From a phage, in the sequence record PZ445517.1: a stretch of DNA of 64,000 bases; one strand, given 5' to 3'. Below the pieces are notes generated by a model that saw only the letters and a list, made by a program, of their open reading frames with translations, was not told the DNA's origin and made no database searches. Of this stretch, positions 33,645 through 37,362 are shown in pieces; the stretch's first letter is position 1; every line of letters starts with the position of its first letter. The position numbers were made by a program, and so were the translations under genes.

Positions 33645-34226
33645 CTAACCGAGCTTTTTAGTTAATTCATTCCAATGTTTTCTACACAAAGAAACATAAA
33701 TTTCATCACCAATACAGATTTGATTACCTTCTTTAACTGGTGATCCATCTTCCATTAATCGAGCTGTCATAATCGCTTTTTTACCACAATGACAAACTGC
33801 CTTTAGTTCAATAAGTTTATCTGCAATCGCTAAAAGTTCTTTAGAACCTTCAAATAATTTTCCAGCGAAATCAGTCCTTAGCCCATAAGCCATAACAGGA
33901 ACATTATATGTATCAACAATTCGGCTCAATTGATGCACCTGTTCAGTTTTTAAAAACTGAGCTTCATCTACAAATACGCAATGAATATCTTTTTGTGCTT
34001 CAGCCCATTTATAGAACTCGAAAATATCCATATCATCTGTAATAATATTCGCTTCCTGCTTAATTCCAATGCGAGAAACGACTTCACAGACAGAATCGCG
34101 AGTATCAATAGCAGGCTTAAGAACTAATACACTCATTCCACGTTCTTTATAATTATGTGCAGCAGTCAAAAGAGAAGCAGATTTTCCAGCATTCATTGCT
34201 GCATAAGTAAAAATTAAACTCGCCAT
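33645..34226 (-). CDS. tk: thymidine kinase
   Basis: 193 aa; P-loop AMNAGKS, zinc ribbon CHCGKKA...C; T4 Tk length. Confidence 0.93.
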   Translation of the reverse strand: MASLIFTYAAMNAGKSASLLTAAHNYKERGMSVLVLKPAIDTRDSVCEVVSRIGIKQEANIITDDMDIFEFYKWAEAQKDIHCVFVDEAQFLKTEQVHQLSRIVDTYNVPVMAYGLRTDFAGKLFEGSKELLAIADKLIELKAVCHCGKKAIMTARLMEDGSPVKEGNQICIGDEIYVSLCRKHWNELTKKLG

Positions 34227-34227
34227 T

Positions 34228-34416
34228 TTAGTCCTTAGTTAAATTTTCTAAATATGTTTCTAAATCATTTTCAGCTTTATCGATAGATTTTACTAATTCG
34301 TAATATGTTTCGGCATCTCCATAATCAGAAGATAATTCAAAAGACAAATCCTTTTCTAAACTAATAATTTCACCAACTAAAAATAATATTTCGTTCTTTT
34401 GTTCGCGAGTAATCAT
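34228..34416 (-). CDS. small protein, tandem paralog
   Basis: 62 aa, MITREQKNEILFLVGEI...; similar to next ORF. Confidence 0.45.
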   Translation of the reverse strand: MITREQKNEILFLVGEIISLEKDLSFELSSDYGDAETYYELVKSIDKAENDLETYLENLTKD

Positions 34417-34598
34417 AAGGAATTTATATAATTAATAAGTTCTTGTTCTTTATTATCGAATTCTTTAGAAAGTTCTTCGTACTCGTTTGCATTAAAAGGA
34501 CCGCATTCATCACAAACTTTTTCCAATTCACTATTTTTATCCATAATTTCGTGGATAAGAGAAAAGAGTTTGTCTTTTTGTTCTTTGCTTAGGCTCAT
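34413..34598 (-). CDS. small protein, tandem paralog
   Basis: 61 aa, MSLSKEQKDKLFSLIHEI... Confidence 0.45.
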   Translation of the reverse strand: MSLSKEQKDKLFSLIHEIMDKNSELEKVCDECGPFNANEYEELSKEFDNKEQELINYINSL

Positions 34599-34764
34599 AT
34601 ATTAATTTCCAGAAGTTTTAAAATAATTCGCTTTTGCTTAAATATTTCCACAGTTAAATGATCAGTATCTTTTTGACCAATTCCAATGGCAAAACCTTTA
34701 TTAACAGCGAGTTCAATTAAATTATCAAGTTCACGTAACACTTCATATTGTAACTCAGAACTAT

Positions 34765-34992
34765 TCATTTCGGTTTACCTTCTTTAACGAAATCAGGATA
34801 AGGATAAAATCCTGAATAAAATCCTTCACCTTTATGATTGATGCATCCTTTATTAGAACAATAGCACCAATAATCGAAATCACAAGCCATTTCATCGTTG
34901 CATAAAGCAAAAACAACCGGCCACTTACACTTTTCACAGTGGGCATTTTTAAGAATACTAGTTTGGCTCATAACCATGTAACCTTTAAGCAA
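34765..34992 (-). CDS. Cys-rich small protein
   Basis: 75 aa, multiple CxxC pairs. Confidence 0.45.
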   Translation of the reverse strand: MLKGYMVMSQTSILKNAHCEKCKWPVVFALCNDEMACDFDYWCYCSNKGCINHKGEGFYSGFYPYPDFVKEGKPK

Positions 34993-35180
34993 TATTCTTC
35001 TACATGTTGTTTACGACCTTTCTTATCAATAAAGGTATATTCAACGAATGTTCCAATGTAGTCTTTATCTACATCATGTGGACTATTAATTGGGCATTTA
35101 GTACGGCAAATGCGTTCCCATTGACGAATAATTACTGCTTTGTTTTTAGGATCAAACGGATGCGGGTAATGTACTTTCAT
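34968..35180 (-). CDS. hypothetical protein
   Basis: 70 aa ORF. Confidence 0.45.
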   Translation of the reverse strand: MKVHYPHPFDPKNKAVIIRQWERICRTKCPINSPHDVDKDYIGTFVEYTFIDKKGRKQHVEEYCLKVTWL

Positions 35181-35631
35181 AATCCACCACTATTAAATCA
35201 ATATCAGGAGTAAACATGTCGATTAATTTAGAAACCTTATCCCAATCGCCGCCAGCAATACCACAACCTATGCGTGGAATGTAAATTACCGGTTTAAACA
35301 AAAGGGTTTCTGCCTGTAGATTTAATTCTATCATGCAGTTTACTAAAGCACCATAATCAAGATTAGGACCCGGTTCGTATTGCGTATACAAATTATAGCA
35401 TATACTAAATCCTGTGGGATTATGTTTAAAAACAATAGACATATCGCCTAATTTATCACGAGAACCGTACTCGGTAGTGGTTTTATCTATTTCTAAAATT
35501 TTGGGATAGGCTCTTGCTAATTGACCCGCTACGCCAGAGCCCATTGTGTGGAAGCAATTGCACCCGTGCGCAATAATATTACCTTGAAGAAATAGGGCGA
35601 CAATATCGCCCTTGATATATTTTACAATCAT
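35152..35631 (-). CDS. macrodomain (ADP-ribose binding/processing) protein
   Basis: 159 aa; IAHGCNCFHTMGSGVAGQL and IPRIGCGIAGGDW motifs typical of macro domains. Confidence 0.65.
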   Translation of the reverse strand: MIVKYIKGDIVALFLQGNIIAHGCNCFHTMGSGVAGQLARAYPKILEIDKTTTEYGSRDKLGDMSIVFKHNPTGFSICYNLYTQYEPGPNLDYGALVNCMIELNLQAETLLFKPVIYIPRIGCGIAGGDWDKVSKLIDMFTPDIDLIVVDYESTLPASV

Positions 35632-35975
35632 CTAGTACTCAATCCTCGATTATAAGAATCTACTAAACGGTCAACCATTGAATGACAAGCGGCTTTATCT
35701 TTCTCCTCCGCAACTGAGCATTCTAAGGTATTCCACTTTTTAGCATATCGTTTTAATAATGTATCGTTTTTGTATCTGCTTGATTTATCTCTTTCTCCGT
35801 CTTTATATGCATATATTAATTTCTGTGCAAATTCAGCTTGGCATGCTTTATTTTTCCCACAATAATCTGCCGCAGTGCGGTTTACATATTCTCTAATTTC
35901 CGTATATGATGTATCTGCTGACGCAGAAGCAGAAAATGAAATTAATCCTATACATAAAACCAAAATTTTAGTCAT
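35628..35975 (-). CDS. secreted small protein (vs position)
   Basis: 115 aa with signal peptide; same length as T4 Vs but identity not verifiable. Confidence 0.5.
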   Translation of the reverse strand: MTKILVLCIGLISFSASASADTSYTEIREYVNRTAADYCGKNKACQAEFAQKLIYAYKDGERDKSSRYKNDTLLKRYAKKWNTLECSVAEEKDKAACHSMVDRLVDSYNRGLSTR

Positions 35976-36513
35976 TTACTATTTCCAAAAGTTTATTATT
36001 TTTAAGGTAGTTAGCCTTTTCTAGGACTTCAGAAGCATATTTAGAACCTGCTTTAACATTCCATCCCGAATTATAAGAGGATATTGCTTTTCTTATATCG
36101 CCCTTATGTATATTTAACCAATAAGAAAGTTCAATGTACGCCCAGGAAGCTGAATTGGATCGTTTATTCAACATTCTTTTTATTTCAGCATCAGTCATAT
36201 TATAACCAAGTTCCTTAACTCTCGCTCGCATAGTAGGCAAATAATTTTGGAACATTCCATAAGCGTGATGCTTTGGTTTAGATTTTAAATTAACTCCGCC
36301 AGAGCTTTCTTGCCATAAAATGGCTGCCATTATATGACCTAATCCGCTCTTGTGGATATTTTTATGTGTTTTATATTTTCCATCCTTAGAAAATTGTTCC
36401 CCGAATTGATACGCGTAACGCATGTTATCGAGTTGGACATTACTGAAAGTATGCTCGGAGCTATGTGCCATCATTGAAATGGCCAATAGACCAGCGAGTA
36501 GTGCTTTTCTCAT
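35968..36513 (-). CDS. periplasmic lytic transglycosylase (SLT domain)
   Basis: Signal peptide plus ILWQESSGG...AYGMFQ SLT catalytic motif; 181 aa. Confidence 0.7.
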   Translation of the reverse strand: MRKALLAGLLAISMMAHSSEHTFSNVQLDNMRYAYQFGEQFSKDGKYKTHKNIHKSGLGHIMAAILWQESSGGVNLKSKPKHHAYGMFQNYLPTMRARVKELGYNMTDAEIKRMLNKRSNSASWAYIELSYWLNIHKGDIRKAISSYNSGWNVKAGSKYASEVLEKANYLKNNKLLEIVND

Positions 36514-36520
36514 GCTTACC

Positions 36521-36982
36521 TCATTGAGTTTTAATTACTGCTTTAGAAGCCTTTCCTGGTAAACGACGACTGTTAATAATTGCCATCCTACATTGAAGTG
36601 ACGGGTCTTTGAACTTCTCGTTAGGTTTACAAACTGTAAATCCAAGCCAAAGATTTCCATCTGTGATTTCTAAACGTCCAGGACGATATTCAACCCCATC
36701 AATAAAATCCTCGTCAATGTCAGGACGCGGAGGCATACTCAGGAATTCATTAACTTCTAAAACATGGTCTTTTATTTTATGGAATAATTCAAAAACATAT
36801 GTCTCATCAATCTCCCGCTGAATTGCGCGATCAAGAAGATGCTGAGAATATTTTAGATGAAACGATGAGACCCCTGCTGCTTTTGATGCCTCACGAATCT
36901 CATTGTTAATTTGACGAAACTCCGACTCAAAGTGACGACGAAGCTTATTTCGACGGATAAAAACTTCAGTGTTGATAGTCAT
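36521..36982 (-). CDS. regB: sequence-specific endoribonuclease RegB
   Basis: 153 aa, T4 RegB length; own early promoter with perfect TGGTATAAT upstream. Confidence 0.8.
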   Translation of the reverse strand: MTINTEVFIRRNKLRRHFESEFRQINNEIREASKAAGVSSFHLKYSQHLLDRAIQREIDETYVFELFHKIKDHVLEVNEFLSMPPRPDIDEDFIDGVEYRPGRLEITDGNLWLGFTVCKPNEKFKDPSLQCRMAIINSRRLPGKASKAVIKTQ

Positions 36983-37004
36983 GTTATTCTCCTCTTAACT
37001 GATA

Positions 37005-37042: not shown

Positions 37043-37362
37043 TATTCTTTAAATCTAATCAATTTATTCATAGACTTTGAAACTTCTGCACGGACCTCAT
37101 GTAGGTTTTTAAGTTGTTCAAGACGTTGCTCATAGTAAGCAATTTCATCTTCTTCGAGACAGTCCTGTGAATCTTCTTTAAGATAACGTGCATAGTCCTG
37201 GAAAGCTTTACGGACTACTTCCTGGAAGTCATCAAGACTTTGAATTTTCTTAGGAGCGGCAGATACACGACGAGGTGCAGTATAATACTCATAACCAAAC
37301 CCTGCACTTAATTGAGCCATTAGTATTTTTCCTCTGGTTGGAACACTGCACGACAAGCCCAC
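37042..37362 (-). CDS. hypothetical protein
   Basis: 106 aa ORF. Confidence 0.5.

What the first reader, a model, noticed from the sequence alone, without database searches (positions are those of the whole stretch)
35152..35631. Macrodomain protein between tk and vs
The 159-aa product carries the two glycine-rich macrodomain signatures (HGCNCFHTMGSGVAGQL and IPRIGCGIAGGDW). Macrodomains bind or remove ADP-ribose; in a phage that itself ADP-ribosylates host proteins, and whose hosts use ADP-ribosylating defences such as DarTG, a phage macrodomain is a plausible counter-defence or regulatory enzyme. I do not recall such a gene as a characterised T4 function.
Basis: partly seen in the sequence, partly recalled or inferred. 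Interest (0 to 1): 0.55.

Follow-up and report, generated by a model that had tools for sequence, protein, structure and literature searches.

The report
Phage T4 tk.4 (adfM) macrodomain gene
This is the T4-family gene tk.4, a small macrodomain enzyme whose T4 counterpart was recently shown to protect the phage from the bacterial DarTG2 defence, most likely by clipping ADP-ribose off phage DNA; it is real but already known.

Summary

T4's own record has called tk.4 an "A1pp phosphatase motif" protein for about 20 years. A November 2025 preprint (HIDEN-SEQ) found tk.4 as the single transposon hit on a DarTG2 host. A clean knockout sensitised T4 to DarTG2, and the gene was renamed adfM.

Three details are added here:
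- The family is not DarG-like in its active site. DarG and TARG1 have a catalytic lysine. This family has an invariant glutamine there (Q84, 259/259 members), as does Streptomyces SCO6735, a proven thymidine-ADP-ribose DNA hydrolase in which that glutamine is essential.
- PhiKZ "AdfM" is a different, truly DarG-like lineage.
- This allele is only 58% identical to T4 Tk.4, inside a 97-100% identical backbone.

No biochemistry exists for any Tk.4 protein.

The parts
35152..35631 (-). tk.4 / adfM ORF, 159 aa, a single macrodomain
   Evidence: ORF list. Pfam PF01661. AF2 pLDDT 94.5. Positional ortholog of T4 tk.4.
35518..35568 (-). Motif 1, HGCNCFHTMGSGVAGQL (aa 22-38). H22-G23-C24-N25 is the substrate-binding loop and G31-x-G33 the first glycine loop. 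N25 corresponds to SCO6735 Asn27, H22 to His24 and G23 to Val25.
   Evidence: Coordinates verified. Across 259 family members: H22 in 252, G23 in 256, N25 in 257. Residue mapping. SCO6735 mutagenesis from PMC9411070.
35380..35394 (-). N80-L-Y-T-Q84 motif. Q84 occupies the position of the catalytic Lys of TARG1 (K84) and DarG (K80), and of the essential Gln85 of SCO6735.
   Evidence: Alignments. Q84 and Y82 are present in 259/259 family members and N80 in 258/259.
35242..35280 (-). Motif 2, IPRIGCGIAGGDW (aa 118-130), the phosphate-binding loop. G122 and G124 correspond to SCO6735 Gly126 and Gly128.
   Evidence: Coordinates verified. G122 and G124 are each present in 257/259 members. The SCO6735 G128E mutant loses activity.
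35628..35631 (-). ATGA overlap of the vs stop codon with the tk.4 start codon, an arrangement typical of translational coupling. A GAGGA/GAG Shine-Dalgarno-like sequence lies just upstream.
   Evidence: Sequence read directly.
35152..35180 (-). 29-nt overlap of the tk.4 3' end with the tk.3 start. The last residues of Tk.4 (STLPASV, pLDDT <50 for 156-159) are read out of frame through tk.3. A 13-nt gap relative to T4 puts T4's ATGA stop out of frame, so reading continues into tk.3.
   Evidence: DNA alignment with T4. Model confidence. Translations.
35180..35600 (.). Locally divergent allele cassette. Nucleotide identity to T4 is 44-71% here, against 97-100% in the flanking vs, vs.1, regB, tk.3, tk.2, tk.1 and tk genes.
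   Evidence: Sliding-window identity. Pairwise alignment. Protein identity 58%.

Best explanation
The ORF is the tk.4 (adfM) gene of a T4-like phage. It encodes a stand-alone macrodomain ADP-ribosyl-glycohydrolase of the ALC1/TARG1-like class.

Its most likely job is to remove the ADP-ribose that the host toxin DarT2 attaches to thymidine (N3) in single-stranded phage DNA. That would keep phage DNA replicable and neutralise the DarTG2 defence.

The active site is of the lysine-less 'glutamine type' described for Streptomyces SCO6735. An invariant Gln84, held in place by invariant Asn25, would position the distal ribose. Hydrolysis would then be started by a water molecule bound to backbone atoms of the H22-G23-C24-N25 loop, rather than by the nucleophilic or catalytic lysine used by DarG and TARG1.

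What is shown: the ORF and its motifs, the fold, the class membership, the residue correspondences, and positional orthology to T4 tk.4.

What comes from the literature: deleting T4 tk.4 sensitises the phage to DarTG2; SCO6735 hydrolyses thymidine-linked ADP-ribose on DNA and needs Gln85 and Asn27.

What is inferred: that this 58%-identical allele does the same job, that the activity is enzymatic removal from DNA, and that the SCO6735 mechanism applies.
For: Fold and class:
- Pfam Macro above threshold.
- AF2 pLDDT 94.5.
- Foldseek gives the same group.

Orthology:
- Same position between vs and tk.3 as T4 tk.4, 58% identity over the full length.

Function of the ortholog:
- T4 tk.4 was the only HIDEN-SEQ hit on a DarTG2 host, and a clean knockout was sensitised.
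- T4 lacking adfA and adfN stays DarTG2-resistant, which had predicted a further factor (PMC11825919).

Active site:
- Q84 aligns with TARG1 K84, DarG K80 and SCO6735 Q85.
- Q84 is present in 259/259 family members and N25 in 257/259.
- SCO6735 cleaves DarT-made thymidine-ADPr on DNA and rescues E. coli from DarT. Its Q85A and Q85E mutants are dead and N27S is nearly dead (PMC9411070).
- hhalign of the family profile against SCO6735: probability 98.6, E=5e-16, 145 columns. Against Mtb DarG: 97.7, E=2.5e-12, 109 columns.

Precedent:
- A different phage macrodomain, PhiKZ gp104, removes DarT2 marks from DNA in vitro (PMC13309987).
Against: - No Tk.4-family protein has been assayed biochemically. 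The preprint itself only says enzymatic removal 'seems likely'.
- The window allele is only 58% identical to the tested T4 protein.
- The protein is acidic (pI 5.0).
- It lacks the long lysine-bearing 'mobile loop' and the Lys34 equivalent that contribute to DNA activity in SCO6735. Position 32 is Ser, and the loop between Q84 and Y93 is 8 residues against 13-14.
- Sequence similarity to yeast Poa1p, an ADP-ribose-1''-phosphate phosphatase, is about as strong as to SCO6735.
- The genetic evidence comes from a preprint and from one DarTG2 system, under particular conditions (M9 glucose, 30 C).
Confidence: 0.72

Rival explanations
1. A housekeeping hydrolase of small ADP-ribose derivatives: an ADP-ribose-1''-phosphate phosphatase like yeast Poa1p, or an O-acetyl-ADP-ribose deacetylase. 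This is what the database label 'phosphatase' implies. Protection from DarTG2 would then be a side effect or an additional activity.
Against: The labels derive from the old domain name, not from assays. The only phenotype on record for tk.4 is DarTG2-specific, and the gene is dispensable on plain K-12. From general knowledge, not tested here, T4 encodes no Tpt1/KptA-type enzyme that would generate Appr-1''-p. The invariant Gln/Asn pair matches the residues needed for DNA-thymidine activity in SCO6735.
Confidence: 0.1
2. An eraser of protein ADP-ribosylation. It would either tune the phage's own Alt/ModA/ModB modifications of host proteins, or reverse a host ADP-ribosyltransferase that targets phage proteins.
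For: TARG1 and SCO6735, both close structural relatives, also remove Glu/Asp-linked ADP-ribose from proteins. T4-like phages ADP-ribosylate host proteins (general knowledge; cited in PMC9503650).
Against: By established knowledge, T4 Alt, ModA and ModB modify arginine, a linkage that macrodomains do not cleave (ARH1-type enzymes do). No protein-level phenotype is reported. The transposon screen found the gene conditionally essential only with DarTG2, a DNA-modifying system.
Confidence: 0.06
3. A non-catalytic antagonist. It would bind and block DarT2 as the DarG C-terminal domain or ICP1 AdfB do, or it would sequester ADP-ribose or NAD-derived molecules.
For: Other anti-DarT factors (AdfA, AdfB) are thought to act by direct toxin binding (PMC11481870). 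Sharp allelic divergence in an otherwise conserved backbone is what one expects of a protein-protein interface in an arms race.
Against: The protein is only a macrodomain, with no equivalent of the DarG C-terminal DarT-binding domain (159 aa against 338; NCBIfam DarG 28.7 bits against a cutoff of 250). All active-site residues are invariant across 259 diverse members, which argues for catalysis.
Confidence: 0.05
4. A reverser of RNA ADP-ribosylation (for example CmdT-type mRNA modification, or phosphate-end or uracil-linked ADPr), or a degrader of ADP-ribose-derived immune signals such as those of Thoeris.
For: Macrodomains of this class act on some RNA-linked ADP-ribose (PMC11833690). Uracil, like thymine, can be ADP-ribosylated (title of PMC13036486). 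Macro domains are proposed to target cADPR-like signals (PMC9503650).
Against: SCO6735 was inactive on 5'-phosphate, 2'-OH and guanosine RNA/DNA-ADPr in the assays described in the results of PMC11833690, although that paper's discussion states it is active on RNA phosphate ends. CmdTAC gives robust defence against T-even phages (abstract of PMC11618068), so tk.4 evidently does not neutralise it. No such phenotype emerged for tk.4 in the screen described.
Confidence: 0.05

Closest known systems
T4 Tk.4 = AdfM (anti-DarT factor Macrodomain), NP_049723; HIDEN-SEQ preprint, bioRxiv 10.1101/2025.11.20.689424
   Same: Same genomic slot (vs | tk.4 | tk.3), same length class and the same single macrodomain. 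All family-invariant residues are shared (H22, G23, N25, G33, N80, Y82, Q84, P119, G122, G124, W130). The first ~35 nt of the ORF and both flanks are nearly identical at the DNA level.
   Different: Only 58% amino-acid identity. The phosphate loop is IGCGIAGGDW here and IGAGIGKGNW in T4. This allele has 4 extra C-terminal residues because a 13-nt gap relative to T4 shifts the frame past T4's stop. The function of this allele has not been tested.
Streptomyces coelicolor SCO6735 (PDB 5E3B) and Bacteroides BT1257 (PDB 2FG1/2AFC): lysine-less ALC1-like macrodomains. SCO6735 is a proven thymidine-ADPr DNA hydrolase (PMC9411070).
   Different: The 'mobile loop' after the Gln is 8 residues here, with no lysines, against 13-14 residues with Lys89/Lys93. 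The SCO6735 Lys34 equivalent is Ser/Ala. pI is 5.0 against 9.5. Identity is about 26%.
DarG antitoxin macrodomain (T. aquaticus 5M31/5M3E, M. tuberculosis 5M3I)
   Different: The catalytic Lys (FPTK motif) is replaced by Gln84. There is no C-terminal DarT-binding domain. NCBIfam DarG equivalog score is 28.7 bits against a cutoff of 250. phmmer gives only E=3e-5 (Mtb) and 1.1 (Taq).
PhiKZ gp104 'AdfM' (anti-darT factor macro), Cell Rep 2026, PMC13309987
   Same: A phage-encoded stand-alone macrodomain that counters DarTG2. Its removal of DarT2 marks from DNA was shown in vitro. It carries the same gene name.
   Different: It belongs to a different lineage. gp104 is truly DarG-like (phmmer E=9e-25 to Mtb DarG, FPTKDNW lysine motif). 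BLASTP against Tk.4 gives only E=1e-3 over 23 residues. It is found in 276 phage records, against 2,782 for the Tk.4 family. It is imported into the phage nucleus, which T4 lacks.
Human TARG1/OARD1 and yeast Poa1p
   Different: The TARG1 catalytic dyad K84/D125 corresponds here to Q84/A126. Poa1p is characterised as an Appr-1''-p phosphatase, an activity not tested for Tk.4.

Membership tests
Macrodomain superfamily (Pfam PF01661) | Profile match above the curated gathering score | tested here: met
   34.1 bits against a cutoff of 22, E=2.8e-8, covering profile positions 2-117 of 118.
Macrodomain superfamily (Pfam PF01661) | Three-layer alpha/beta/alpha macro fold with two glycine-rich loops lining the ADP-ribose cleft | tested here: met
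ALC1/TARG1-like macrodomain class (TARG1, DarG, SCO6735, BT1257, Poa1p) | Closer in structure and sequence to class members than to the MacroD, PARG, macroH2A or viral X-domain classes | tested here: met
T4 Tk.4 / AdfM orthologous group | Positional orthology (between vs and tk.3) and full-length homology to T4 NP_049723 | tested here: met
   Gene order. 58% identity over 155 aa, E=8e-71. Flanks are 97-100% identical.
T4 Tk.4 / AdfM orthologous group | Confers resistance to DarTG2 (loss sensitises the phage) | not testable with these tools
   Shown only for the T4 allele. It needs plaque assays with this allele.
Gln-type (SCO6735-like) thymidine-ADPr DNA hydrolases | Gln at the TARG1-K84 / DarG-K80 position, with the Asn that locks its rotamer | tested here: met
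   Q84 corresponds to SCO6735 Q85 and N25 to N27. They are present in 259/259 and 257/259 family members.
Gln-type (SCO6735-like) thymidine-ADPr DNA hydrolases | Extended lysine-bearing mobile loop and Lys34, said to characterise the SCO6735 subclass and to aid DNA binding | tested here: not met
   The loop is 8 residues (YEPGPNLD) with no Lys, against 13-14 residues. Position 32 is Ser. Tk.4 is therefore a separate short-loop branch, not a member of the SCO6735 subclass proper.
Gln-type (SCO6735-like) thymidine-ADPr DNA hydrolases | Hydrolysis of thymidine-N3-linked ADP-ribose on ssDNA | not testable with these tools
   It requires an enzyme assay. None is published for any Tk.4-family protein.
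DarG antitoxin (NCBIfam NF048014) | Equivalog score above cutoff, with the macrodomain plus the C-terminal DarT-binding domain | tested here: not met
   28.7 bits against a cutoff of 250. The protein is 159 aa against a 338-position profile, and only profile positions 2-142 are matched.
DarG antitoxin (NCBIfam NF048014) | Catalytic lysine in the FPTK motif | tested here: not met
   The aligned residue is Gln84.
DarG antitoxin (NCBIfam NF048014) | Encoded next to a DarT toxin gene | tested here: not met
   The neighbours are vs and tk.3. A bacterial homolog also lacks a DarT neighbour.

The most novel reading that the evidence does not exclude
The name 'AdfM' hides two independent recruitments of macrodomains by phages against DarT2. 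The Tk.4 family is about ten times more common in sequenced phages than the other, and it would be a distinct short-loop, lysine-less (Gln84) branch with its own catalytic solution.

tk.4 is also a local hot spot of allele replacement: 44-71% nucleotide identity inside a 97-100% identical backbone, with at least two or three allele groups among T4-like phages. If that reflects an ongoing arms race, different alleles could be tuned to different DarT variants or other base or ADP-ribose linkages. Alternatively, they could be escaping a host factor that senses or inhibits the macrodomain.
Probability: 0.25. Interest if true: 0.5.

Novelty: already known. Interest (0 to 1): 0.2.

Why it matters
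As a discovery it adds little. The gene has been annotated as a macro/A1pp domain since the T4 genome paper era, and its anti-DarTG2 role is now on record.

What remains open is biochemical. Tk.4-type proteins occur in about 2,800 sequenced phage records and in 18,273 protein clusters. They lack the catalytic lysine of DarG and TARG1 and also the DNA-binding loop of SCO6735. Showing how they cleave thymidine-linked ADP-ribose, and why their alleles are so divergent within near-identical T4-like genomes, would clarify a widespread phage counter-defence. It would also clarify the catalytic diversity of the TARG1-like macrodomain class, which includes a human disease gene.

Tried and rejected
- I considered that Tk.4 is an 'orphan DarG antitoxin'. 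I rejected this as a membership claim: the NCBIfam DarG score is far below cutoff, there is no C-terminal domain, there is no catalytic lysine, and there is no DarT neighbour.
- I considered that Tk.4 and PhiKZ gp104 (also named AdfM) are the same family. I rejected this: BLASTP gives E=1e-3 over 23 residues, and gp104 matches DarG at E=9e-25 with the FPTK motif.
- I looked for ICP1 AdfB as a macrodomain precedent. It is not a macrodomain but a toxin-binding mimic.
- I scanned for sigma-70-like promoters and MotA-box-like sequences upstream of tk.4. Promoter-like sites were not enriched over shuffles (16 found against 19.5 expected), and no MotA-box match lies between vs and regB. Nothing can be said about transcription timing from this.
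- I tried to inspect the active-site geometry of the AF2 model directly. Coordinates are not exposed to the script environment, so the residue roles rest on alignments.
- I could not obtain the middle part of the Poa1p sequence from the PDB search output. The residue of Poa1p at the Gln84 position was therefore not determined.
- I did not attempt dN/dS between the two alleles. The nucleotide divergence (about 45-50% mismatches) is saturated.

Full report
**Observation**

The ORF list shows a 159-codon ATG-initiated ORF at 35152..35631 on the minus strand. Its product carries HGCNCFHTMGSGVAGQL at residues 22-38 and IPRIGCGIAGGDW at residues 118-130.

The window is 100% identical over the 3-kb stretch queried (34000-37000) to Escherichia phage T4_ev240 (LR597657.1), a Tequatrovirus. 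On the minus strand the gene order is regB, vs.1, vs, this ORF, tk.3, two extra small ORFs, tk.2, tk.1, tk. The ORF is therefore tk.4 and is annotated as such in related phages.

Its ATG overlaps the vs stop codon (ATGA). Its last 29 nt overlap the tk.3 start.

**It is a macrodomain**

- Pfam PF01661 scores 34.1 bits against a gathering score of 22, E=2.8e-8, and nearly the whole profile is covered.
- PHROG 335 matches at E=2.5e-71.
- An AlphaFold2 model built on 46 homologs has mean pLDDT 94.5 and pTM 0.89. Only the last four residues are disordered.
- Foldseek against the PDB gives TARG1, BT1257, Poa1p and DarG with probability 1.00.

The protein thus belongs to the ALC1/TARG1-like macrodomain class.

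**What is already known**

The T4 RefSeq record annotates tk.4 as 'phosphatase; contains A1pp phosphatase motif'. Nolan et al. 2006 reported the A1pp domain in tk.4 orthologs (PMC1524935). The ORF had been sequenced by the time of the early GenBank entry X04567.

Work on DarTG1 showed that T4 lacking adfA and adfN remains resistant to DarTG2, and it predicted a further factor (PMC11825919).

The HIDEN-SEQ preprint (bioRxiv 10.1101/2025.11.20.689424, 20 Nov 2025) then infected a DarTG2 host with a T4 transposon library. [quoted passage not shown] A clean knockout was sensitised, and the gene was named adfM (anti-DarT factor Macrodomain). The authors state only that enzymatic removal of ADP-ribose from DNA 'seems likely'.

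**Active-site analysis**

In a 46-sequence family alignment the invariant residues are H22, G23, N25, C26, G33, A35, D49, G62, N80, Y82, Q84, P119, G122, G124 and W130. I extended this to 259 members, made up of the best 120 clusters at 90% identity plus the best 150 representatives of a search of 1.84 billion proteins. Counts were Q84 259/259, Y82 259/259, N80 258, N25 257, G23 256 and H22 252.

Three kinds of alignment place Q84 at the position of the catalytic lysine of TARG1 (K84) and DarG (K80, FPTK motif): HMM-to-sequence, MAFFT and hhalign. TARG1's D125 corresponds to A126. Tk.4 therefore has neither catalytic residue of TARG1 nor that of DarG.

SCO6735 has been shown to cleave DarT-made thymidine-linked ADP-ribose from ssDNA and to rescue E. 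coli from DarT. Q85A and Q85E abolish its activity, N27S nearly does, and G128E reduces it. The proposed mechanism uses a water molecule held by the backbone of Val25, with Gln85 positioning the distal ribose (PMC9411070).

The Tk.4 equivalents are all family-invariant: H22 (His24), G23 (Val25), N25 (Asn27), Q84 (Gln85) and G122/G124 (Gly126/Gly128).

This gives a concrete, testable mechanism for the published phenotype. It also shows that a lysine-less macrodomain of this class can do the DarG job.

**Differences from SCO6735**

The 'mobile loop' after the Gln is 8 residues (YEPGPNLD) without lysines, against 13-14 residues with Lys89/Lys93. The Lys34 equivalent is Ser. The protein is acidic, with pI 5.0 against 9.5. 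Tk.4 is thus a separate short-loop branch, not a member of the SCO6735 subclass proper.

An acidic pI does not exclude DNA activity. PhiKZ gp104 has pI 5.05 and is active on DNA.

**Relation to DarG and to the other 'AdfM'**

Tk.4 fails the DarG membership tests:
- NCBIfam DarG equivalog scores 28.7 bits against a cutoff of 250.
- There is no C-terminal DarT-binding domain.
- There is no catalytic lysine.
- There is no adjacent toxin gene.

A bacterial homolog (Pelagimonas, 40% identity) is a stand-alone chromosomal gene without a DarT neighbour.

The chimallivirus protein PhiKZ gp104 is also named AdfM and has been shown in vitro to remove DarT2 marks (PMC13309987). It is a genuine DarG-like macrodomain: phmmer gives E=9e-25 to M. 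tuberculosis DarG, and it has the FPTKDNW motif. It is barely detectable from Tk.4 by BLASTP, with E=1e-3 over 23 residues.

By tblastn the Tk.4 family is present in 2,782 of 50,697 phage records and the gp104 family in 276. Phages have therefore recruited two different branches of the same macrodomain class against DarT2.

**This allele against T4's**

The window protein is only 58% identical to T4 Tk.4. A sliding-window comparison shows 97-100% nucleotide identity to T4 through tk, tk.1, tk.2, tk.3, vs, vs.1 and regB, but only 44-71% inside tk.4, at about 35180-35600.

Divergence begins directly after a conserved hairpin at the 5' end of the ORF and ends at the tk.3 start.

Among phage records, 313 carry a protein at least 90% identical to the window allele. 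224 carry one at least 90% identical to the T4 allele, and a further 159 fall at 80-90% to T4.

This looks like allele or cassette replacement at a counter-defence locus. Whether it reflects functional diversification is unknown. All catalytic residues are retained in both alleles. The phosphate loop of the window allele (IGCGIAGGDW) is closer to the family consensus than T4's (IGAGIGKGNW).

**Mechanism and confidence**

- I am almost certain (above 0.98) that this is a macrodomain of the TARG1-like class and the positional ortholog of T4 tk.4/adfM.
- I put about 0.7 on the full statement that this allele protects the phage from DarTG2 by hydrolysing thymidine-linked ADP-ribose on ssDNA, using a Gln84/Asn25 water-mediated mechanism.

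Three steps in that statement are inferred:
- the function transfers across 58% identity;
- the protein acts by catalysis rather than by binding;
- the SCO6735 mechanism applies.

The rivals each have little support and are listed with their refutation tests. They are a small-molecule ADP-ribose phosphatase or deacetylase, a protein de-ADP-ribosylase, a non-catalytic DarT2 blocker, and an RNA-ADPr or immune-signal hydrolase.

**Verdict**

Interest is low at 0.2. The residual open points are the untested biochemistry of a very widespread lysine-less phage macrodomain, and the marked allelic divergence at this locus.

Noticed in passing
window 35594-35612 (minus strand), codons 7-13 of tk.4: A GC-rich hairpin, AGGGCGAUAUUGUCGCCCU (8 bp; centroid about -12.9 kcal/mol), followed by a U-rich stretch. 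It sits just inside the tk.4 ORF, immediately downstream of the vs stop. It scores as terminator-like, and a 'terminator' is annotated at this place in phage ECML-123-2. The sequence is conserved in T4, and the T4/window allele divergence begins right after it. It may attenuate or stabilise vs transcripts, or mark a recombination boundary.
   Followed up: partly
window 34590-34965 (ORFs 34595..34768 and 34765..34992, minus strand): A ~370-bp segment absent from T4 lies between tk.2 and tk.3. It carries two small ORFs: 57 aa (PHROG 3452) and 75 aa (Cys-rich, PHROG 2306), both of unknown function. The segment is present in 445 T4-like phage records.
   Followed up: partly
window 35180-35600 against T4 NC_000866 60922-61389: tk.4 is a local island of low identity (44-71% nt, 58% aa) in a backbone that is 97-100% identical to T4. 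At least two or three allele groups circulate among T4-like phages.
   Followed up: partly
window ~37160-37360: A second break in collinearity with T4 occurs upstream of regB, in the vs.3/vs.4 region. Identity falls from about 95% to gaps.
   Followed up: no
window 35628-35975 (vs, minus strand): The neighbouring gene vs (valyl-tRNA synthetase modifier) was the strongest conditionally required T4 gene in minimal medium in the same HIDEN-SEQ preprint. It is translationally coupled (ATGA) to tk.4.
   Followed up: no
T4 tk.4 (literature; PMC8573959): Laboratory sublines of T4 differ by a missense change in tk.4 (106A->G, Ser36Gly), which lies in the helix following the first glycine loop.
   Followed up: no
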